From: Candidatus Falkowbacteria bacterium RIFOXYC2_FULL_36_12
GTDB taxonomy: Bacteria > Patescibacteriota > Patescibacteriia > UBA11705
NCBI GenBank assembly: GCA_001778235.1
Contig: MFGJ01000007.1
Coordinates: forward strand, 77,085 to 141,084
Direction: 5' to 3'
Length of the DNA stretch: 64,000 nt
Positions within the stretch are counted from its first letter, which is position 1; each line of letters begins with the position of its first letter. This document shows, piece after piece, positions 13,480 through 23,780 of this stretch. A model generated the notes under the pieces. The model worked only from the letters and a program-made list of their open reading frames with translations, was not told the origin of the DNA and did not search any database. Both the position numbers and the translations under genes were made by a program.

Positions 13480-14877
13480 CTAGTTTTGAATTATAACGGC
13501 TGTCCCTTCTGGAGTCCATTGGTATAGCCAATCTGCATTTGGTAGAGAAACATTAACACAACCATGACTCATCTTGTGGCCCCAATTGTTATGCCAGTAA
13601 GCACCGTGAATAGTAAATGGCCCCTTGAATGACATCACATCTGGAACATTGGGTAAATCATAATTATTTGGATTGTCTGGACCATAGAACCAGCTCATGC
13701 GTACAAGAGGGCGTTTTTTGAAAATGTAAAATTTACCGATTGGTGTGTCAAAACCGACCTTACCCGAAGAAATTAAAAAACTTTTTATTAATCTTCCCCT
13801 TTCATAGGCATACAATCTCTGTTCAGATATATCTACTTTTATAGCTTTCCCAGTAAGAGATAAAGTTGTATCAGCAGAAATAGTTTGAGGCAAAACAGCA
13901 ATCTCATTATTGTCAGACCCAAATTTTCCAAGCGCCACATTTATTCCACCACGGAAATTTTCTTCATAGGCAAAAAATTTGGGGTTTATTTTTACATTGC
14001 CATCAAGATCAAAAAATCTAACATGAGGGCCACCACTATATCCGGCAGCAGTTACAATCATGGGCTGTCCAGCTATCAAGTCCGCCTCAACATCAACTCC
14101 ACCACGGAAATGTTCAGCATAAGCAAGGAATTGTTTTAACTGCTCACCCTTATTATTAAAAACTTGAATTAATGGTGCACTACCAATTCCAGCGCCTAAG
14201 ATAATTTCATCAGCGCCATCATTGTTTAAATCAAAACTGGCAACTTTTTTTGGTTCAAAAGCCTTATCCGCTGGACTAGAAAATGATGGAAATATTTCTT
14301 GACCAGATGCACTGAAAAATTTTACTATATTTCTTCCATCTTGAAGCAAACTAATAATTATATCAGGCATGCCGTCAGAATTAACATCTCCAACATTTAC
14401 TTCCAGTCCGCCCCTAAAACCTTGATCATAGGCAAAAAAACCATTTGAGAATTTAGGATTACCAAAACCATCAAAAACTCGGACTTGTGGTCCTCCACCC
14501 TCTCCTGGTACAGTTACGATTTCATCTTTGCCATCGCCATCAAAATCCGCGGCCGCAAGATTAATCTTGCCTTCATAACCCACAGGATATGGTTGCCATT
14601 TATTTATCAAACTTCCATCGTATCGATAAAGTGCAACCTCTGGACGAGACTGATATCCGTAACTGACAATAATTTCATTAATATTATCCCCACCCAAATC
14701 TACGAGGGAAAAATCCATTACCCCCTGAAAACCATCTTGAACCAATTTCAGATCTTTGGTTGAGACTAGAGTGCTTGAGTTAAAAGCTCGGAAATCCAAG
14801 CCAGCTGCACTGACAGAAGAAACAGCCAGGAAAACTCCAACCGTTGCCACGAGCAATATAATTATATTCTTTTTCAT
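13480..14877 (-). CDS. Secreted FG-GAP repeat protein fused to L,D-transpeptidase (YkuD) domain
   Basis: Signal peptide, then repeated DxDxDGxxD(E)I FG-GAP/Ca-binding motifs. C-terminal HG…SHGCVN catalytic motif of L,D-transpeptidases. Confidence 0.75.
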   Translation of the reverse strand: MKKNIIILLVATVGVFLAVSSVSAAGLDFRAFNSSTLVSTKDLKLVQDGFQGVMDFSLVDLGGDNINEIIVSYGYQSRPEVALYRYDGSLINKWQPYPVGYEGKINLAAADFDGDGKDEIVTVPGEGGGPQVRVFDGFGNPKFSNGFFAYDQGFRGGLEVNVGDVNSDGMPDIIISLLQDGRNIVKFFSASGQEIFPSFSSPADKAFEPKKVASFDLNNDGADEIILGAGIGSAPLIQVFNNKGEQLKQFLAYAEHFRGGVDVEADLIAGQPMIVTAAGYSGGPHVRFFDLDGNVKINPKFFAYEENFRGGINVALGKFGSDNNEIAVLPQTISADTTLSLTGKAIKVDISEQRLYAYERGRLIKSFLISSGKVGFDTPIGKFYIFKKRPLVRMSWFYGPDNPNNYDLPNVPDVMSFKGPFTIHGAYWHNNWGHKMSHGCVNVSLPNADWLYQWTPEGTAVIIQN

Positions 14878-15708: not shown

Positions 15709-17838
15709 ATGCGCAATAACACTAATTTAATACTGTCCATAAAAGACCTACATTTAGATAAAGAAAAAGGTAAAAATACTTATTTATGCCAAAATTTTAA
15801 AATCTATCCTGAAGGAAAAGAGTTGCATGGCGGATATTTATTTGGAATAATTGAAATCACTGCGACTCCAAAAGACGAAGCTCAAAAAATTTATCAAATC
15901 ATAATAAACACCTTTCGCGAAAACTACTATAAACAAATTATTAGTTCACCTGAACCACAAAAGATAAACATTGAAACCATTTTTGAATTTGCCCTAAACC
16001 AAACAAATCAGAAAATTCTTGAGTTAATTGAAATCGGACAAATAAAGTTAATTATTGACAATCTGAATTACTTTATCGGAGCGATAAAAACATCAAGTGA
16101 AGCTTTGGCTGACATTATCTTTACCAATAAAGGCAGCATAAAAGCCTTTTTAATTTATAGAACCAAAAAAAATACAAACAAAATTATCGACATCCTGAAG
16201 TTTTCAAGTAATTCAAATAACCATGATAAGATAAAAATATTCTCATCGATTGCTGCTGGTGAACTAAAAAACCACAATACGCTAATAGTCTGTACTGAAA
16301 TTTTTAGCAATTACATATCGCCAGAAAAGATTTTAGATATTCTTTCAAAAAACGAGACAAATGAAGCAATTAATTATTTCAAAACCCAAATAAAACAAGT
16401 ACAAAGTAAAAACGACCTGTCATATAGCGCGCTATTTCTGCGACATGAATTAAATACTCTTACCTCCGACAGTCCATTATCACAAAAATCAATTAATGAA
16501 CTGATCCAAACATCTGAAACAACAGAAAAGCTATTGACTCCAGCCATGGCATTAAATATCAAAAAGCATTTTAATGCTATAAAAAATAAATTAAAATCTT
16601 CTAATAAATCAAAAACTCTAAAGGAAGCAAGAGTATCAAGCAAAGAAAAACAGGGACAAAGTGATCACAAATTACCAATCTGGCGCAATACTTACCTTTT
16701 CATCACAGGGCACAAGGGTTTATCACTTGCTAATATCAAATCTTCAATTATGAAAATGATGTCATCTCAAAAACCAAAAACAAAAATTCCGTACATCATT
16801 CTTGCGGTGATAGTTGTTTTAATTGTAGCCTTTACCTCCAGCATCTTCTGGTTTAGACACTCTGAAAAAGTAAAACAAGAACAAATTGTCTATACTCAAC
16901 AAATTGAAAATGTAAAAAATTTATTAAGTGATGCTGAAGCCAGTTATATATACAAGAACAACGCTCAAAGTATGGAAAAAATAAAGCAAGCACAAGGTGA
17001 ACTAGCTTTTCTACCACGATCTACTGAAAGTCAACAAATAAATTATGAGAATTTAGACCAGGCAGTTTCAGAGCTTTACAATAAAGTTCTTAACATAGAA
17101 AAAATCGTGGCTCAACAAATCGCAACCATACCGGCAGAACAAACATTGAATAAATTAGAATTATTCAATGATAGTTTATTACTAGCTGACACTTCAGAAC
17201 TTTTTATTGGTAAAATTGATAATTTTGAGGCAGTAAAATCAGCCTCAATAAGCTCACTCTCTCTCATAACAAATGATGAAACAAAAGCCCTAGTACTTGA
17301 TAATAATCAGAGCTTGTACTCTTTTTCTGGTTTGACTGTAGAGCCTTTGAATCAAAAGCTAGTAGCCAGCCCAACAGCAATGAAGTTATACAATGGTCGA
17401 CTATATGCTTTGCAAAAAAACAGCCAAACCATTACAAGATATACTTCAAATTTTACAGGAAATGAAGCTTGGATAAAAAACTTAGGTGAGGAAAATCTTA
17501 GCACGGCAGTATCAATATCAATTGATGGCAGTATCTATGTACTAAGCGAAAATGGTCATATTACGAAATTTTTTGCAGGGACAGTTGAAGCCTTCAATAA
17601 CCCAGTGATTGAACCGGAGATTAATAGCGCAGATAAAATAATCACATCTCCTGAAACCAACAACTTATTTATATTTGAAGCGGAAACAAAACGATTGCTA
17701 GTTATTAGCAAAACCGGAGATTTAACTCGGCAAATAGTTTTTGACTCAATGGAAAAAATCGATGACTTGGCAGTTGACAACACCGGAAAAAACGGTTTTC
17801 TAATATCAAACAATGCCTTGTATAAGTTCTCATTATAA
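15709..17838 (+). CDS. Large bitopic membrane protein, extracytoplasmic beta-propeller-like C-domain
   Basis: 709 aa. Cytoplasmic N-domain of about 350 aa, TM around residues 360-382, then a C-terminal region with repeated aromatic/Gly beta-strand motifs. Confidence 0.55.
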   Translation: MRNNTNLILSIKDLHLDKEKGKNTYLCQNFKIYPEGKELHGGYLFGIIEITATPKDEAQKIYQIIINTFRENYYKQIISSPEPQKINIETIFEFALNQTNQKILELIEIGQIKLIIDNLNYFIGAIKTSSEALADIIFTNKGSIKAFLIYRTKKNTNKIIDILKFSSNSNNHDKIKIFSSIAAGELKNHNTLIVCTEIFSNYISPEKILDILSKNETNEAINYFKTQIKQVQSKNDLSYSALFLRHELNTLTSDSPLSQKSINELIQTSETTEKLLTPAMALNIKKHFNAIKNKLKSSNKSKTLKEARVSSKEKQGQSDHKLPIWRNTYLFITGHKGLSLANIKSSIMKMMSSQKPKTKIPYIILAVIVVLIVAFTSSIFWFRHSEKVKQEQIVYTQQIENVKNLLSDAEASYIYKNNAQSMEKIKQAQGELAFLPRSTESQQINYENLDQAVSELYNKVLNIEKIVAQQIATIPAEQTLNKLELFNDSLLLADTSELFIGKIDNFEAVKSASISSLSLITNDETKALVLDNNQSLYSFSGLTVEPLNQKLVASPTAMKLYNGRLYALQKNSQTITRYTSNFTGNEAWIKNLGEENLSTAVSISIDGSIYVLSENGHITKFFAGTVEAFNNPVIEPEINSADKIITSPETNNLFIFEAETKRLLVISKTGDLTRQIVFDSMEKIDDLAVDNTGKNGFLISNNALYKFSL

Positions 17839-18240: not shown

Positions 18241-18280
18241 AAAAAAACAAAAAACTCGCTATAACAGCGAGCTTTTTTAT
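18241..18280. terminator. Bidirectional intrinsic terminator downstream of rplL
   Basis: A-tract, CTCGCT-ataac-AGCGAG hairpin, T-tract. Confidence 0.6.
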
Positions 18281-19362: not shown

Positions 19363-19547
19363 ATTATTTGTTAATAATTTAGTAATTAAATCCTAGTAAT
19401 TGGATATAAAAAATCCCCGGTTGCCCGCAGATGAAATAAAACTGTTGTGGCTATACATCAAAATGATGTATCAGCTTCTAGTCCTATGCAAGGTATTGGT
19501 TTAAGCCAGTGTGGCCCTTGCAGTCTGCGGAAATATATTGTAGTTAT
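19363..19547 (-). promoter_or_regulatory. Putative ribosomal protein L10 leader (structured 5' UTR)
   Basis: GC-rich long-range pairing (CCGCAGA…TCTGCGG) and a hairpin plus U-tract just upstream of rplJ. Sits downstream of a consensus promoter. Confidence 0.4.
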
Positions 19548-19576
19548 ATACTAACAAAAATAACGGGCATTGTCAA
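19548..19576 (-). promoter_or_regulatory. Sigma70-type promoter of rplJ-rplL
   Basis: TTGACA-N17-TAGTAT on the minus strand. Confidence 0.5.
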
Positions 19577-19618
19577 TAAGCAATTTTTATCCTAAAAATA
19601 AACAAAAAAACAGCCGAT

Positions 19619-20386
19619 TTAGACTGATTTATTTTTCTTTCTATAACAAACCGAACAAATTTTTCCTTGCTCAAAATCACGGTATTTTAGCCTTCTTTGG
19701 TGCCTGCAAATACCACATTTGCCGTAGTTTTTAGGTATAAATATCCGTTGATAACAGGTATGGCAATATGGCATATTTTCTGGGTCACGATATCTGACTG
19801 ATCGGATTTTATTGCAACCAAAGCATTTCTTTTTATTGCCTTTTTTGTTATAACATTTTCGACACATTTTCCGTCCATCTAGTAAATTTTTAACAATGAT
19901 ATAATAGCCCTGACAAAATGAACACTTAAACTTCTTGTGATCATAAACTTCTCTCAAATAACAGGTAGAACAAATTGCATCTACTTCACTTAGCCAGATA
20001 TGTAATGGCTTCTTCTGCTTACAGATGACACAGACAATTAAGGAAAATTTCTGACGATAACATGTACGACAAAACTCGTTTTTCTGTTCATCTCGACCAT
20101 AAAAAAGTTTTTGTTTGTTACAACTGTTACAAATAATTGTTTTAGGACAATACTTTTTCCTTTTATAATTTTTACTGAAACTCATTGTTCCATTTTTTGC
20201 CCTATAGTTAACAATTTTTTGTTTGAGGCTAATTTCAGGTAAAACAACATTCTGATTTTGACTTAATGGATTTTCTTTTTCATTTTTTTCTCTCTGACGG
20301 CAGTCAAAACAGAGCTCAAAAACTGAAAACTTTGATGGTCGAACTGTATTTTTGATTTCCAGGCATAAATCACACCGATTGCTCAT
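19619..20386 (-). CDS. Basic protein with six tandem CxxC-X14-17-CxxC(Y) zinc-ribbon modules
   Basis: Six spaced CxxC…CxxCY units are visible in the translation. The protein is K/R-rich. Start at MSNRCDLC follows a GGAGGGG SD and overlaps the GT4 stop codon. Confidence 0.65.
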   Translation of the reverse strand: MSNRCDLCLEIKNTVRPSKFSVFELCFDCRQREKNEKENPLSQNQNVVLPEISLKQKIVNYRAKNGTMSFSKNYKRKKYCPKTIICNSCNKQKLFYGRDEQKNEFCRTCYRQKFSLIVCVICKQKKPLHIWLSEVDAICSTCYLREVYDHKKFKCSFCQGYYIIVKNLLDGRKMCRKCYNKKGNKKKCFGCNKIRSVRYRDPENMPYCHTCYQRIFIPKNYGKCGICRHQRRLKYRDFEQGKICSVCYRKKNKSV

Positions 20387-21530
20387 TGTCCCCTCCAAGG
20401 AATTGCTGGAGTTTGCTGGCTTGGATTGACCACTGGAAAGTTTGATTGATGCGACTAATGCCTTGATTAGCAAGAATGGCAGATTTTTCTGGATTGTCAA
20501 TTAGCTGTGAAATTGCCTCGGCGATTTCAATGGGGTTCAAGGGATTAACAACTAAACCATTATAATCATGAATTACAGCCTCAATCGCGCCACCACTGCG
20601 CCCGGCAATCGCTGGTAGACCAAAGAGGTTTGCTTCTAGGTAAACAATACCAAAACCCTCCACATCGCCATTATCGAGCCTCCTAGCGGGCATAACAAAG
20701 ATATCAGCTAGTTCATAATAAATTGGCAGTTCATGATCGGTTATGTTTTCAATTATTCGAACATTATTTGATAAGCCATACATCTGGATCATGTTTAGCA
20801 AGTAATTTTTATATTTTCCTTTACCGATTATAAGATACAAAATTTTAGGGTACTTGGATACAAGTATTTTCACAGCTTCAATCGTCTTGTCCGCACCTTT
20901 CCTTTCAACCAATCGACCAACGGTTATAATTATTTTTCGATCTGTGAGTGTTTCTTCTCTGATAATTTTATCTTTTAATGTTTGATCAGAACTTTTTTGA
21001 GAGAAATTTGGGCAAGGATAAATAATCTCAACTGGAGTATTATTGCCCAAGCCAACCTTGGTTAATTCATGACTGGTATATTGGCTATTGACAATTATTC
21101 TATCAGCATGTTTCAAAATTTTCTTTAATAAATGCCTTTTTCTCGGTCGAGATTGAGACAAGGCAATGTCTAAACCATGAAAAGATAATACATATGGAAT
21201 ATTCAAGAATTTTTTCAAAAGATAGGCGATTGTGCCACCGGGCAGGACTTGGGCGACAATAATTTGCTCAATTTTTTCACTCCTGACTATTCTCCAGGTT
21301 TGGAATAAAAAAGGTAGCCATTTTGGCCAAATTAATTTTTTGTTTGATAATAATTTATGGCGATAAATTAAGAAATTCTGTTTAATATCAAAATCAAGAG
21401 AATTATCATATTCTGGAGCAAGAACCACAATATCTTTATCTGGCAACTGTTTTAGTAAATTTGCCCAATAATTTGAAACACCACCAAACATTGGTGGGAA
21501 ATCCAGAGTGATAAGCAATGTTTTTTTCAT
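20370..21530 (-). CDS. Glycosyltransferase family 4
   Basis: EGFGIVYLEANLFGLPAIAGRSGG motif of GT4/GT-B enzymes. Confidence 0.85.
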   Translation of the reverse strand: MKKTLLITLDFPPMFGGVSNYWANLLKQLPDKDIVVLAPEYDNSLDFDIKQNFLIYRHKLLSNKKLIWPKWLPFLFQTWRIVRSEKIEQIIVAQVLPGGTIAYLLKKFLNIPYVLSFHGLDIALSQSRPRKRHLLKKILKHADRIIVNSQYTSHELTKVGLGNNTPVEIIYPCPNFSQKSSDQTLKDKIIREETLTDRKIIITVGRLVERKGADKTIEAVKILVSKYPKILYLIIGKGKYKNYLLNMIQMYGLSNNVRIIENITDHELPIYYELADIFVMPARRLDNGDVEGFGIVYLEANLFGLPAIAGRSGGAIEAVIHDYNGLVVNPLNPIEIAEAISQLIDNPEKSAILANQGISRINQTFQWSIQASKLQQFLGGDNEQSV

Positions 21531-22243
21531 ATTAATGTAATTATCCCTAATTGTCCTCCTTGGTTAGCACTTTTATCTCTCCGGTATGAATAATATTTAT
21601 GATTACAGCTGGTACAAACTGAACTTATTTCAAGGTTTTTGTGATGAACTCCAACGGTTTTTAGCTGATCAACAACCAGTGCGGTCAAATCATAATACAA
21701 TCTGTTATTAATTTTCTGCAAAAATTTGGACGGGAACATGTCAAGAATGTCTTGTTTTATCTCAAAACAGCATTTACCTATATGTGGACCAATTGCAATG
21801 TGCAAGCTATCTGACTTTGTATTATAATCTTTTTTCATTAATTCTGCAAGTTTAGGGATAATTTCCTTGACTACACCTTGCCAGCCTGCATGGGCGATAG
21901 CAATAACTTGATTTTGCTTATCATAAAAAAAAACGGGTAGACAATCCGCAGTCTCAATCCCTAAAATTATATTTTTTTCATTGGTTATTAGTGCATCATA
22001 GCCATTAAGCCAATTTTTCTCGGTTGATCCTCGACCACGGTCTTTTGAAATGACTTTAATTATTTTATTGCCATGAACCTGCTGAACTGTCACAAGATTT
22101 GGTAATGACAATTCAAGTTGATTAAAAAATGTCTGACGATTTGCCAGAACATTGTCACCAGACCATTTGAAAGATAAATTGCCATCGGTTGAATCACTAA
22201 ATGTTGCAATAATATCTGAAAATTTTTCAAAAAATCCAATCAT
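21527..22243 (-). CDS. YfiH/PgeF-family (laccase-domain) purine nucleoside/peptidoglycan editing enzyme
   Basis: ETADCLPV…HAGWQG…C…H motifs of the YfiH family. Confidence 0.75.
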   Translation of the reverse strand: MIGFFEKFSDIIATFSDSTDGNLSFKWSGDNVLANRQTFFNQLELSLPNLVTVQQVHGNKIIKVISKDRGRGSTEKNWLNGYDALITNEKNIILGIETADCLPVFFYDKQNQVIAIAHAGWQGVVKEIIPKLAELMKKDYNTKSDSLHIAIGPHIGKCCFEIKQDILDMFPSKFLQKINNRLYYDLTALVVDQLKTVGVHHKNLEISSVCTSCNHKYYSYRRDKSANQGGQLGIITLI

Positions 22244-22244
22244 A

Positions 22245-23681
22245 TTATTTTCTCAACATTGATTGCTTGAGATAAGTCATGTCTTGTCGGGAAAAACCTT
22301 TGACTAAGTATAAAACTCCAATATAAATAATAGCACCGATTACCATTACCAGAACTAAATTCATTGACTGTTTCAAGTATAAAACTGCAATGGTCATAAT
22401 GACAGCACTTAAAATAGTTTTAGCAAAAACAAGTATTAAATTCCGACGGCTATATGGGATAATTTTCCTGGCAACAAAAAGACTGATTAAAAAAAGTAAT
22501 GCGTGGCAAACAAGAAAAACAGCTGCAGCTCCAATATAACTATATTGGGGTATAAAAATTAAATTCAAAATAATATTCAAAGCCATAACAAGACCAACCA
22601 ACTTGGTATTTGTGACTTGCTTATCACAACCGTTTAGCAAAGCTCCTAAGGGGAAATTGAGAAAAACAAAAATCAAACCAAAAACTAATATCTTCAAAGT
22701 TAAAACAGAATTAATAAATTGCTGGCCAAAAAGCATTGGAATAACTTCATCGGATAAGCTTAATAAACCGAATGATATTGGCACGACAAAAATTGTCAGT
22801 AGCAACATGGCTTTATCAAAGGAAAATTTCAACTTTGCTTTGTCATGAACAAAATAATAGCTGAATGCTGGAAAAATGGCGGCAGCAAAAGCCGATGGGA
22901 TAAATTGAAGAGCAAATGGAACCTTCATGGCTGTTTGGTAAAAGCCTACCGCAGCATCACCTTTTAGATATGATAAAAGAACAGAGTCAATATTGCCATA
23001 GATGCGACTAAAAATCGCAATTAAAGCAAACGGTAAGGCAATTTTGAACAAAAATTTTAATATTTCAGGATCAAATTTCCAACAATATCGGACATTTAAT
23101 TTCCGACGAACCATGATACTAGAGTAGACAAAATTAAAAAGCCCACCGGCTAGAAGCGGTAACATTAAAAACATCAAGCTTTGATGGGTCAGTAAAACAT
23201 AGGCGCCGGATAAAACCACGACAACTTGACTAATCACAATACTGAAAGCCTCATATTTTAGATTTTGTCCACCACGAAAAACACCCCAAAAACTAAGAGT
23301 GAAGGAATCTAACATCATCAACAAACCAGATAAATATACTAAATTTTTGGTAATAGGTGGATAGCCCATTAAGTTTATCACCAGAATAACTACCAAATAA
23401 GATAAAATAGCCAAGATAGACTTTGAAGTCAGGATTGAAGATAAATATTTACTGGTTTTGTCAAAACTTTTGGCTGACTCTCTTATCAAAGCTGATGATA
23501 AACCGAAATCAATGAAAACCGCAAACATGGTGGTAAATGACAAGGCAAAAGTATATTTACCTAAATCTTCAACGCCAATAAATCTAGCAATTAAAACAAA
23601 ATAAACAAAAGCAAGGATTTTCTGTCCGATATAGGCAAGAGTGAGGTAAGTTGTGTTTTTGGCGATTGTTTGTTTTGTCAT
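22245..23681 (-). CDS. Polysaccharide/oligosaccharide flippase (MOP superfamily, Wzx-like)
   Basis: 478 aa with about 12-14 TM helices and MOP-family topology. Confidence 0.75.
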   Translation of the reverse strand: MTKQTIAKNTTYLTLAYIGQKILAFVYFVLIARFIGVEDLGKYTFALSFTTMFAVFIDFGLSSALIRESAKSFDKTSKYLSSILTSKSILAILSYLVVILVINLMGYPPITKNLVYLSGLLMMLDSFTLSFWGVFRGGQNLKYEAFSIVISQVVVVLSGAYVLLTHQSLMFLMLPLLAGGLFNFVYSSIMVRRKLNVRYCWKFDPEILKFLFKIALPFALIAIFSRIYGNIDSVLLSYLKGDAAVGFYQTAMKVPFALQFIPSAFAAAIFPAFSYYFVHDKAKLKFSFDKAMLLLTIFVVPISFGLLSLSDEVIPMLFGQQFINSVLTLKILVFGLIFVFLNFPLGALLNGCDKQVTNTKLVGLVMALNIILNLIFIPQYSYIGAAAVFLVCHALLFLISLFVARKIIPYSRRNLILVFAKTILSAVIMTIAVLYLKQSMNLVLVMVIGAIIYIGVLYLVKGFSRQDMTYLKQSMLRK

Positions 23682-23780
23682 AAAGTAATTAAATTATACA
23701 GTAAATTGTAATGATTTCAAAATTGTTAAGTGCGAATAATAATTGCTTATTTCAATCTCATCTAGTCATAAAATTTTCAC

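What the first reader, a model, noticed from the sequence alone, without database searches (positions are those of the whole stretch)
19619..20386. A protein of six tandem Zn-ribbon modules is translationally coupled to an envelope glycan operon
The translation shows six repeats of CxxC-X14-17-CxxC-Y(R/Q/N). The protein is highly basic. Its start overlaps the GT4 stop and is preceded by a strong SD, so it is the last gene of the flippase-YfiH-GT4 operon. I recognise no standard family; it might be a nucleic-acid- or protein-binding scaffold. Such a cytoplasmic poly-zinc-ribbon protein co-transcribed with cell-surface polysaccharide genes is unexpected.
Basis: seen in the sequence. Interest (0 to 1): 0.6.

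Follow-up and report, generated by a model that had tools for sequence, protein, structure and literature searches.

The report
Six-finger zinc protein, lineage-specific operon add-on
The gene is real and encodes a very basic protein of six four-cysteine zinc fingers from a large, uncurated family whose members are often fused to DNA-cutting and DNA-recombining enzymes, but its link to the sugar-envelope genes is absent from related genomes and is probably positional.

Summary
Window 19619-20386 (- strand) encodes a 255-aa protein with pI 9.7. It has 12 CxxC motifs forming six CxxC-x16/17-CxxC modules. Its ATG overlaps the GT4 stop by 17 nt and follows a GGAGGGG Shine-Dalgarno site.

No curated library matches it. 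An exhaustive HMMER search found 141 distant relatives (E<=1e-3). These are tandem arrays of the same ~33-aa module, and 82% of the arrays have pI>9.

AlphaFold2 with an alignment of relatives gave pLDDT 84. Each module is hairpin-hairpin-helix, which is a treble-clef finger and not a rubredoxin-like ribbon. The best solved matches are tandem LIM domains, and GATA fingers match weakly by profile.

Longer relatives carry GIY-YIG nuclease, tyrosine-recombinase or HTH domains and sit in recombinase cassettes on actinobacterial plasmids. The most likely role of the array is therefore nucleic-acid, probably DNA, binding. This is inferred, not shown.

The glycan link is not conserved. Three related Falkowbacteria-type contigs keep flippase-GT4 (two of them also downstream rplJ), but carry an amino-acid-kinase gene in this slot. 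No orthologue of the zinc protein exists in the databases searched.

Verdict: a divergent stand-alone member of an uncharacterised zinc-finger array family, appended to the operon in this lineage. Interest is moderate.

The parts
19619..20386 (-). Gene for the 255-aa, six-module Cys4 zinc-finger array protein (P0001; NCBI 'hypothetical protein A2300_04440', Candidatus Falkowbacteria bacterium RIFOXYB2_FULL_35_7)
   Evidence: ORF and translation. An identical product is called in public assemblies. It has 141 distant relatives by exhaustive phmmer.
20300..20374 (-). Module 1 (aa 5-29), CxxC-x17-CxxC. It is followed by Arg, not Tyr.
   Evidence: It aligns with the first (x17) module of relatives in A2. 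AF2 pLDDT is 85-93. A module HMM built from relatives does not score it above shuffles: 1.2 bits, shuffle maximum 6.0 bits.
20132..20299 (-). Lineage-specific 56-residue linker (aa 30-85), part helical and part disordered, containing the odd 25th Cys (C80)
   Evidence: It is absent from all relatives in alignment A2. pLDDT is below 50 at residues 42-51 and 66-77.
20060..20131 (-). Module 2 (aa 86-109), CxxC-x16-CxxC-Y
   Evidence: Module HMM score 18.5 bits, shuffle maximum 6.0 bits.
19961..20032 (-). Module 3 (aa 119-142)
   Evidence: Module HMM score 25.1 bits.
19853..19924 (-). Module 4 (aa 155-178)
   Evidence: Module HMM score 18.9 bits.
19754..19825 (-). Module 5 (aa 188-211), the one closest to the family consensus
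   Evidence: Module HMM score 38.5 bits. It also gives the weak match to the LIM protein CRIP.
19646..19717 (-). Module 6 (aa 224-247)
   Evidence: Module HMM score 19.5 bits.
20390..20396 (-). Shine-Dalgarno site GGAGGGG, lying inside the last GT4 codons, 3 nt upstream of the ATG
   Evidence: Read from the sequence.
20370..20386 (-). 17-nt overlap between the end of GT4 (TGA stop at 20372-20370) and the start of the zinc-finger gene
19611..19626 (-). Weak terminator-like hairpin with a T-run, overlapping the stop codon
   Evidence: Consensus scan. Fold energy -11.3 kcal/mol, z = -2.2. This is only suggestive.
20370..23681 (-). Upstream operon genes: MOP/Wzx-type flippase 22245-23681, PgeF/YfiH 21527-22243, GT4 glycosyltransferase 20370-21530
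   Evidence: Pfam and NCBIfam hits. The genes are tightly packed.
23693..23720 (-). Promoter-like site TTGAAA-16-TATAAT upstream of the flippase gene
   Evidence: 11 of 12 consensus matches. This is a consensus match only.
19398..19576 (-). Downstream boundary of the unit: promoter-like site (19576-19548) and ribosomal protein L10 leader (19548-19398) ahead of rplJ-rplL
   Evidence: RF00557 scores 42 bits against a gathering score of 44, with E = 9.5e-6 in the local search. The promoter-like site scores 10 of 12 with a TG extension.

Best explanation
The gene encodes a soluble, strongly basic protein built as beads on a string. It has six mononuclear Cys4 zinc fingers of the treble-clef type: a CxxC knuckle, a beta-hairpin, then a helix that starts at the second CxxC. 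A lineage-specific 56-residue linker lies between finger 1 and fingers 2-6.

It is a divergent, stand-alone member of a widespread but uncurated family of tandem ~33-residue finger arrays found in prokaryotes and mobile elements. In other members the array forms the N-terminal part of tyrosine recombinases and GIY-YIG nucleases. On that basis the array most likely binds nucleic acid, probably DNA, through its many exposed Lys and Arg residues, with each finger holding one Zn2+.

In this Falkowbacteria lineage the gene was added at the 3' end of the flippase-PgeF-GT4 operon, in the slot where relatives carry an amino-acid-kinase gene. It is expressed by translational coupling to GT4.

Shown here: the motif architecture, the family relationship, the predicted fold, the fusion partners and the lack of conserved synteny. 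Inferred: zinc binding, DNA binding, and that the coupling to the glycan genes is positional and not functional.
For: Architecture and chance control.

Family relationship:
- Exhaustive phmmer gave 141 non-self hits at E<=1e-3 and 21 at E<=1e-10.
- The hits are tandem arrays with spacers of 15-17 residues and periods of 31-36. The module consensus is ExCSxCG[RK]x[RK]PVxxRxxDGxP[IVL]CxxCYx[RK].
- A module HMM built only from relatives scores window modules 2-6 at 18.5-38.5 bits. The maximum over 500 shuffles was 6.0 bits.

Fold:
- AF2 with the A2 alignment gave mean pLDDT 84.3, with most 10-residue blocks of the finger region above 90.
- Each module is strand-strand-strand-helix.
- The top Foldseek PDB hits are tandem LIM domains: PINCH1 LIM4-5 at E 1.9e-4 with probability 1.0, then LMO2, LMO4 and Lhx3/4.
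- The A2 profile hits the GATA-3 and GATA-1 double fingers at 9e-5 and 2e-4.

Nucleic-acid inference:
- Of 34 longer relatives, 8 carry GIY-YIG, 4 carry Phage_integrase and 1 carries MerR/HTH_17.
- The cassette tyrosine recombinase - HTH - array-bearing 'site-specific integrase' is seen in L018, L022 and the Streptomyces plasmid NZ_CP108555.
- P0034-like proteins occur in 240 plasmid records, mostly actinobacterial.
- Two array proteins lie inside replication-gene clusters that look phage-like.
- 82% of 108 arrays have pI>9, with a median of +3.7 net charge per module. The window array carries +30 over five modules.

Lineage-specific insertion:
- No orthologue was found by k-mer search or exhaustive search (where the best non-self hit is 32% identical in the repeats only).
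- L010, L011 and L027, whose GT4 is 47-50% identical, have an AA_kinase gene after GT4 and no zinc gene.
- The GC content of the gene equals that of the genome.
Against: - No experiment or solved structure exists for any family member.
- DNA binding rests on domain fusions and charge alone.
- The closest solved folds, LIM domains, are protein-protein adaptors.
- The window protein lacks several family-conserved positions. Arg13 is present in only 3 of 6 modules, and module 1 is not recognised by the module HMM.
- Tight translational coupling to GT4 could still reflect a functional link that arose recently.
- Only three related contigs were available to test synteny.
- The model has pTM 0.46, so the relative arrangement of the fingers is not predicted.
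Confidence: 0.5

Rival explanations
1. It is a protein-protein interaction scaffold in the manner of eukaryotic LIM-only proteins. The fingers would dock peptides or partner proteins, possibly the cytoplasmic faces of the glycan machinery, and would not bind nucleic acid.
For: The best structural matches are tandem LIM domains that bind peptides: LMO2/LMO4 with LDB1, and PINCH1. There are weak sequence matches to the LIM proteins CRIP and CRP. The gene is co-translated with GT4.
Against: The defining binuclear LIM pattern is not met: the fingers are 9-12 residues apart, there is no His ligand, and there is no Pfam LIM hit. The family's fusion partners are DNA enzymes. The arrays are uniformly very basic. 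No conserved partner gene was seen across contexts.
Confidence: 0.2
2. It is an RNA- or ribosome-associated basic zinc protein. The gene lies between the S13...S9 ribosomal cluster and rplJ-rplL and could act on rRNA, mRNA or ribosome assembly.
For: The gene is embedded in ribosomal gene clusters. Another stand-alone array (P0023) follows rpsP-KH-trmD on a low-GC contig. The protein is very basic. RanBP2-type and other Cys4 fingers that match the profile include RNA binders.
Against: Small CPR-type genomes are dense in translation genes, so this adjacency is expected by chance. The rplJ operon has its own promoter-like site and L10 leader. The slot holds an unrelated kinase gene in relatives. 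Other stand-alone arrays sit in unrelated contexts.
Confidence: 0.12
3. It is a dedicated regulator or accessory factor of the flippase-PgeF-GT4 envelope glycan pathway.
For: The 17-nt overlap and the SD site inside GT4 imply co-expression. The four genes form one tight unit.
Against: The pairing is absent from all three related contigs. No relative that I could place is near glycan genes. No orthologue exists anywhere else.
Confidence: 0.08
4. It is a decaying or functionless remnant of a mobile-element protein, that is, the array part of a recombinase or nuclease that has lost its catalytic domain.
For: The family is common in mobile-element recombinases. The gene is an orphan in this lineage. 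Its modules are divergent from the consensus.
Against: All 24 zinc-ligand Cys are intact, the frame is uninterrupted, and the gene has a good SD. Stand-alone arrays are the most common form of the family. No recombinase relative lies in the 64-kb window. The composition is fully host-like.
Confidence: 0.07

Closest known systems
Uncurated family of tandem Cys4 finger arrays
   Same: It has the same module (CxxC-x15-17-CxxC-Y), the same ~33-residue period and the same basic charge. Phmmer gives E down to 3e-18, and five of six modules score 18-38 bits with a module HMM.
   Different: The window protein has a unique 56-residue insert after finger 1. It deviates at several consensus positions and has no extra domain. 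It does not itself reach any Pfam model, DZR_2 included, at E<=1.
LIM domains (Pfam PF00412), e.g. PINCH1 LIM4-5, LMO2, LMO4, CRP/CRIP
   Same: Strings of Cys-rich treble-clef fingers with 16-17-residue loops. These are the best Foldseek matches, and the C-terminal LIM finger of CRIP/CRP gives a weak sequence match, including the trailing Y...F.PK.
   Different: LIM is binuclear, with two fingers fused by a 2-residue spacer and a His ligand. Here the fingers are independent, all Cys4, and 9-12 residues apart. There is no Pfam LIM hit.
GATA-type zinc finger (Pfam PF00320)
   Same: The pattern is Cys4, C-x2-C-x17-C-x2-C, a treble clef followed by a basic tail, and GATA fingers bind DNA. The profile hits the GATA-3 and GATA-1 double fingers at about 1e-4. 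Module 1 aligns in register with the GATA C-finger.
   Different: The GATA signature residues (TPLWRR, CNACGL) are absent. The hhalign probability is only 23%. There is no Pfam GATA hit. Most modules have x16 spacers.
RanBP2-type zinc-finger repeats (Nup358)
   Same: Both are tandem Cys4 repeats. Nup358 is the strongest profile hit in the PDB, at 3.7e-15.
   Different: The match is out of register: it pairs the second CxxC of one module with the first CxxC of the next. The W and N signature residues are absent. The 56-residue gap between CxxC 2 and CxxC 3, the even CxxC count and the AF2 model all favour the intramodule register.
DnaJ cysteine-rich domain (CxxCxGxG x4) and rubredoxin-like zinc ribbons
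   Same: Both have repeated CxxC pairs that bind zinc.
   Different: There is no GxG after the CxxC and no Pfam hit. The PDB DnaJ match has E = 0.03 only. The predicted helix at the second CxxC makes each module a treble clef, not a two-knuckle ribbon.

Membership tests
Uncurated tandem Cys4 finger-array family (one search hits) | Module C-x2-C-x15-17-C-x2-C repeated head to tail with a period of 31-36 residues | tested here: met
   The window has spacers of 17, 16, 16, 16, 16 and 16 residues and periods of 33, 36, 33 and 36 for modules 2-6. In the family, spacers are 15-17 in 714 of 743 modules and the modal period is 33.
Uncurated tandem Cys4 finger-array family (one search hits) | Significant sequence similarity beyond the cysteines | tested here: met
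   Phmmer gives E = 3e-18 to 1e-10 for 21 proteins. A module HMM built without the window scores modules 2-6 at 18.5-38.5 bits, against at most 6.0 bits for composition-preserving shuffles. Module 1 scores only 1.2 bits.
Uncurated tandem Cys4 finger-array family (one search hits) | Conserved non-Cys positions (G5, V10, R13, G17, hydrophobic 20, Y25, basic 27) | tested here: inconclusive
   Y25 is present in 5 of 6 modules, R13 in 3 of 6 and basic 27 in 3 of 6. G5 is mostly replaced. The protein is a divergent member.
LIM domain (PF00412) | Binuclear pattern C-x2-C-x16-23-H-x2-C-x2-C-x2-C-x16-21-C-x2-(C/H/D), with the two fingers 2 residues apart | tested here: not met
   The inter-finger gaps are 9 and 12 residues and there is no His ligand. 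There is no Pfam LIM hit at E<=1.
LIM domain (PF00412) | Treble-clef finger fold arranged in a string | tested here: met
   The AF2 secondary structure fits this fold. Foldseek gives E = 1.9e-4 to 1e-2 to tandem LIM structures. Both results rest on a predicted model.
GATA-type zinc finger (PF00320) | C-x2-C-x17-18-C-x2-C with the conserved TPLWRR and CNACGLY residues | tested here: not met
   Only module 1 has the x17 spacer, and the signature residues are absent. There is no Pfam hit. The hhalign probability is 23%.
   In the AF2 model a helix begins at the second CxxC of every module: H27-38, H107-114, H140-147, H176-183, H209-215 and H245-253. This is a prediction, not a solved structure.
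DnaJ cysteine-rich domain | Four CxxCxGxG motifs forming two interleaved zinc sites | tested here: not met
   No GxG follows any CxxC. There is no Pfam hit. The PDB DnaJ entry 1exk matches at E = 0.034 only.
Pfam DZR_2 (PF18912) | A score at or above the gathering threshold of 27 bits | tested here: not met
   The window protein gives no hit at E<=1. Twelve of 34 long relatives match at E<=1e-3, and some exceed 27 bits through summed repeats.
Any zinc-finger family | Zinc is actually bound, one ion per Cys4 module | not testable with these tools
   This needs ICP-MS or a PAR assay on purified protein.

The most novel reading that the evidence does not exclude
The family may be a prokaryotic and mobile-element counterpart of eukaryotic poly-zinc-finger DNA readers. 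In that reading, tandem 33-residue GATA/LIM-half-like Cys4 fingers each read a few base pairs. The arrays would then supply modular, evolvable target recognition to tyrosine recombinases and GIY-YIG nucleases. Stand-alone copies such as this one would be sequence-specific regulators, here recruited by a CPR bacterium and co-expressed with its envelope glycan genes.
Probability: 0.12. Interest if true: 0.7.

Novelty: new variant of a known kind. Interest (0 to 1): 0.4.

Why it matters
If the arrays bind DNA in a modular way, they would be an undescribed class of bacterial DNA-recognition domain. Recombinases and nucleases on actinobacterial plasmids and other mobile elements use them, which makes them relevant to mobile-element targeting and possibly to engineering.

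For this window the practical message is more modest. The gene should be annotated as a tandem Cys4 treble-clef zinc-finger protein, probably nucleic-acid-binding. It should not be read as part of the glycan pathway, because the association is confined to one groundwater Falkowbacteria population.

Tried and rejected
- AF2 on the single sequence was useless, with pLDDT 32.
- The k-mer homology search found only the protein itself. The profile version returned only 3 proteins.
- Tblastn of the window protein against cultured phages and plasmids found nothing.
- PHROGs and PADLOC gave no hit.
- Literature searches for tandem zinc-ribbon recombinases, DZR_2 and zinc-finger tyrosine recombinases found nothing relevant. 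The search for prokaryotic LIM/treble-clef work returned general treble-clef papers, which I did not read further.
- I read HNH-like motifs by eye in the C-termini of P0012, P0032 and P0040. Pfam, NCBIfam and the PDB did not confirm them. The only support is a tblastn hit at E = 1e-3 to annotated phage HNH endonucleases, so I do not rely on it.
- The RanBP2-like alternative zinc register suggested was considered and rejected, because of the 56-residue gap, the even CxxC count and the AF2 model.
- dN/dS was impossible. All nine public loci are 100% identical at nucleotide level across the region.
- There is no DNA-level repeat in the gene and the modules share only 2-7 non-Cys identities, so the repeats are old.
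- No recombinase relative lies in the window.
- The metagenome scan with GT4 added only one informative short contig.

Full report
**Observation.**

The ORF at window 19619-20386 on the minus strand translates to 255 residues. It contains 25 cysteines, 24 of them in 12 CxxC motifs. These pair into six modules of the form CxxC-spacer-CxxC at residues 5-29, 86-109, 119-142, 155-178, 188-211 and 224-247. The spacers are 17, 16, 16, 16, 16 and 16 residues. Tyr follows the fourth Cys in five of the six modules. The protein has pI 9.67, with 59 Lys+Arg against 20 Asp+Glu.

No other such module occurs in any frame of the 64-kb window. None of 20,000 shuffles of the protein produced more than two modules. 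The modules share only 2-7 non-Cys identities with each other, and there is no DNA-level repeat. The repeats are therefore ancient, not a recent amplification.

**Gene context.**

- The ATG at 20386 lies 17 nt inside the GT4 reading frame, whose TGA stop is at 20372-20370. GGAGGGG precedes the ATG by 3 nt.
- The upstream genes are a MOP/Wzx-type flippase, PgeF/YfiH and a GT4 glycosyltransferase. They abut or overlap one another.
- The best promoter-like site of the region (11 of 12 matches) lies just upstream of the flippase.
- A weak hairpin with a T-run overlaps the stop codon.
- About 40 nt further downstream comes another promoter-like site, then a ribosomal protein L10 leader (RF00557: 42 bits, gathering score 44, local E = 9.5e-6), and then rplJ-rplL.
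- The organism is Candidatus Falkowbacteria bacterium RIFOXYB2_FULL_35_7. The identical protein and identical DNA occur in the public groundwater contigs examined: 22 carry the exact protein, and the nine loci compared are identical at nucleotide level.

**Family.**

Pfam, NCBIfam, PHROGs and PADLOC give nothing for this protein. The k-mer homology search finds only the protein itself. There is thus no orthologue at 50-90% identity.

An exhaustive phmmer search of 1.84 billion representatives found 141 other proteins at E<=1e-3, of which 21 are at E<=1e-10. The best is 32% identical, in the repeat region only. Most of these are tandem arrays of 3 to 17 copies of the same module; a minority look like eukaryotic LIM-type proteins with only 1-2 regex modules (e.g. 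P0014).

Over 743 modules the spacer is 15-17 residues, the modal period is 33, and the consensus is ExCSxCG[RK]x[RK]PVxxRxxDGxP[IVL]CxxCYx[RK]. An HMM built from the relatives' modules alone scores window modules 2-6 at 18.5-38.5 bits each. Shuffled versions of the window protein never exceed 6.0 bits. Module 1 is not recognised by this HMM. It does align with the x17 first module of relatives in alignment A2. The 56-residue stretch between modules 1 and 2 is unique to this protein.

**Fold.**

- With the 30-sequence alignment A2, AlphaFold2 gives mean pLDDT 84.3. Most 10-residue blocks of the finger region score above 90 (range 78-96), and only the linker falls below 50. pTM is 0.46, so the fingers behave as independent beads.
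- Every module has the same pattern: a strand, the first CxxC knuckle, a beta-hairpin, and a helix starting at the second CxxC. This is a treble-clef finger, not a rubredoxin-like two-knuckle ribbon.
- The best Foldseek matches in the PDB are tandem LIM domains. PINCH1 LIM4-5 scores E = 1.9e-4 with probability 1.0, followed by LMO2, LMO4 and Lhx3/4. The Stc1 tandem finger appears lower in the list.
- By sequence, the protein weakly matches the C-terminal finger of the LIM proteins CRIP and CRP. The A2 profile matches the GATA-3 and GATA-1 double fingers at about 1e-4.
- Hhalign puts module 1 in register with the GATA C-finger, but at only 23% probability.
- The strongest PDB profile hit, the RanBP2-type repeats of Nup358, is out of register and I reject it.
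- Strict membership of LIM, GATA, RanBP2, DnaJ-CR or DZR_2 is not met in each case; the membership table gives the details.

**What the relatives suggest about function.**

- Among 34 relatives longer than 400 residues, 8 carry a GIY-YIG nuclease domain, 4 a Phage_integrase domain and 1 a MerR/HTH_17 domain.
- P0003 has nine fingers, an integrase-like region and a GIY-YIG domain. It lies in an overlapping gene string: integrase - integrase - HTH - a second finger-array recombinase-like protein - P0003.
- P0143 follows an integrase and an HTH gene.
- The same three-gene cassette is annotated on Streptomyces plasmid NZ_CP108555 as tyrosine recombinase, HTH regulator and 'site-specific integrase'.
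- P0034-like proteins occur in 240 plasmid records, mostly of Streptomyces, Rhodococcus and Mycobacterium.
- Two further array proteins sit inside replication-gene clusters that look phage-like. These clusters include primase, SbcCD-like proteins, gyrase B and DNA polymerase III alpha.
- The arrays are almost uniformly basic. 82% have pI>9, with a median of +3.7 net charge per module. The window array carries +30 over five modules.
- Fusion to DNA-acting enzymes together with the charge makes nucleic-acid binding, most likely DNA binding, the best-supported role for the module. This is inference. No member has been studied experimentally as far as I could find.

**Is the glycan association meaningful?**

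- Two species-representative Falkowbacteria genomes and one metagenome contig have GT4 orthologues at 47-50% identity.
- L011 keeps the whole order: S13-S11-S4-rpoA-L17-L13-S9-flippase-GT4 ... rplJ-rplL and the large conserved minus-strand gene.
- In L011, however, the slot between GT4 and rplJ holds a 222-residue amino-acid-kinase family gene (PF00696). PgeF is not present between the flippase and GT4.
- L010 and L027 show the same kinase gene directly after GT4.
- None of these contigs encodes anything like the zinc protein. The window does not encode the kinase.
- Stand-alone relatives sit in unrelated contexts: after rpsP-KH-trmD, beside an FG-GAP protein, beside a SEC-C protein, and among hypothetical genes with a PIF1 helicase or a DUF2786 gene.
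The co-transcription is best read as a consequence of where the gene landed.
- The gene's GC content (0.30-0.33) matches the genome. No recombinase relative lies in the window. The acquisition is therefore not recent, or the donor is not identifiable.

**Verdict.**

The protein is a divergent, stand-alone, lineage-specific member of an uncharacterised family of tandem Cys4 treble-clef finger arrays.

I give about 0.5 to the full statement of the best explanation. Within it, identity and fold stand at about 0.85, DNA or nucleic-acid binding at about 0.45-0.5, and the positional, non-functional nature of the operon link at about 0.75. The rivals are a LIM-like protein scaffold (0.2), RNA or ribosome binding (0.12), a glycan-pathway accessory (0.08) and a remnant (0.07).

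Novelty: a new variant of a known kind, namely zinc-finger arrays. The interest lies mostly at family level and not in this particular operon.

Noticed in passing
L022 3998-10349; L018 491-4007; L026 3599-7379 (Streptomyces plasmid NZ_CP108555): A recurrent cassette has the order tyrosine recombinase(s) - small HTH protein - large protein with an N-terminal tandem Cys4 finger array and a C-terminal recombinase-like domain. In L022 there are two such array proteins, one ending in a GIY-YIG nuclease. P0034-like array recombinases hit 240 plasmid records, mostly actinobacterial and mostly annotated 'hypothetical protein'. This looks like an undescribed multi-recombinase mobile element family.
   Followed up: partly
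window 19398-19548 (- strand): A ribosomal protein L10 leader (RF00557) lies upstream of rplJ. It scores 42 bits, just under the gathering score of 44, but covers the full model and keeps the conserved CCGCAGAC...GGCUUAA core. It is probably a genuine L10 leader in a CPR bacterium.
   Followed up: partly
window 21527-22243 compared with L011 5538-8179 and L010 3065-5756: PgeF/YfiH sits between the flippase and GT4 only in the window lineage. In the two related Falkowbacteria genomes the flippase and GT4 are directly adjacent. The operon therefore gained two genes here (PgeF and the zinc-finger gene), and the AA_kinase gene that follows GT4 in relatives is absent from this slot and from the rest of the window.
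   Followed up: partly
window 18249-18277: A strong bidirectional terminator-like hairpin (13 pairs plus T-runs on both strands) lies after rplL. It accounts for the spurious sub-threshold Trp_leader and STnc hits in the Rfam scan.
   Followed up: no
window 15709-17838 (+ strand); L011 10228-12375: A 709-aa protein with no Pfam family is conserved in sequence and position, opposite in orientation to rplL, in the related Falkowbacteria genome (715 aa). It is a conserved lineage-specific unknown.
   Followed up: no
P0008 residues ~190-273; P0023 residues ~165-246: Two stand-alone five-finger arrays share a similar C-terminal helical extension that has no family match. This suggests a separate subfamily with an added domain.
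   Followed up: no
L030 7001-8008; L031 4805-5854: Finger-array proteins P0032 and P0040 end in an HIDHIIP...NHQW motif that I read as HNH-like. They sit inside replication-gene clusters that look phage-like. Pfam and NCBIfam do not confirm the HNH reading. The only support is a tblastn hit at E = 1e-3 to annotated Roseobacter phage HNH endonucleases.
   Followed up: partly
window 13480-14877 (- strand): A YkuD L,D-transpeptidase domain is fused to FG-GAP repeats behind a signal-like N-terminus. This is an unusual architecture for a peptidoglycan cross-linking enzyme, and it lies near the envelope operon.
   Followed up: no
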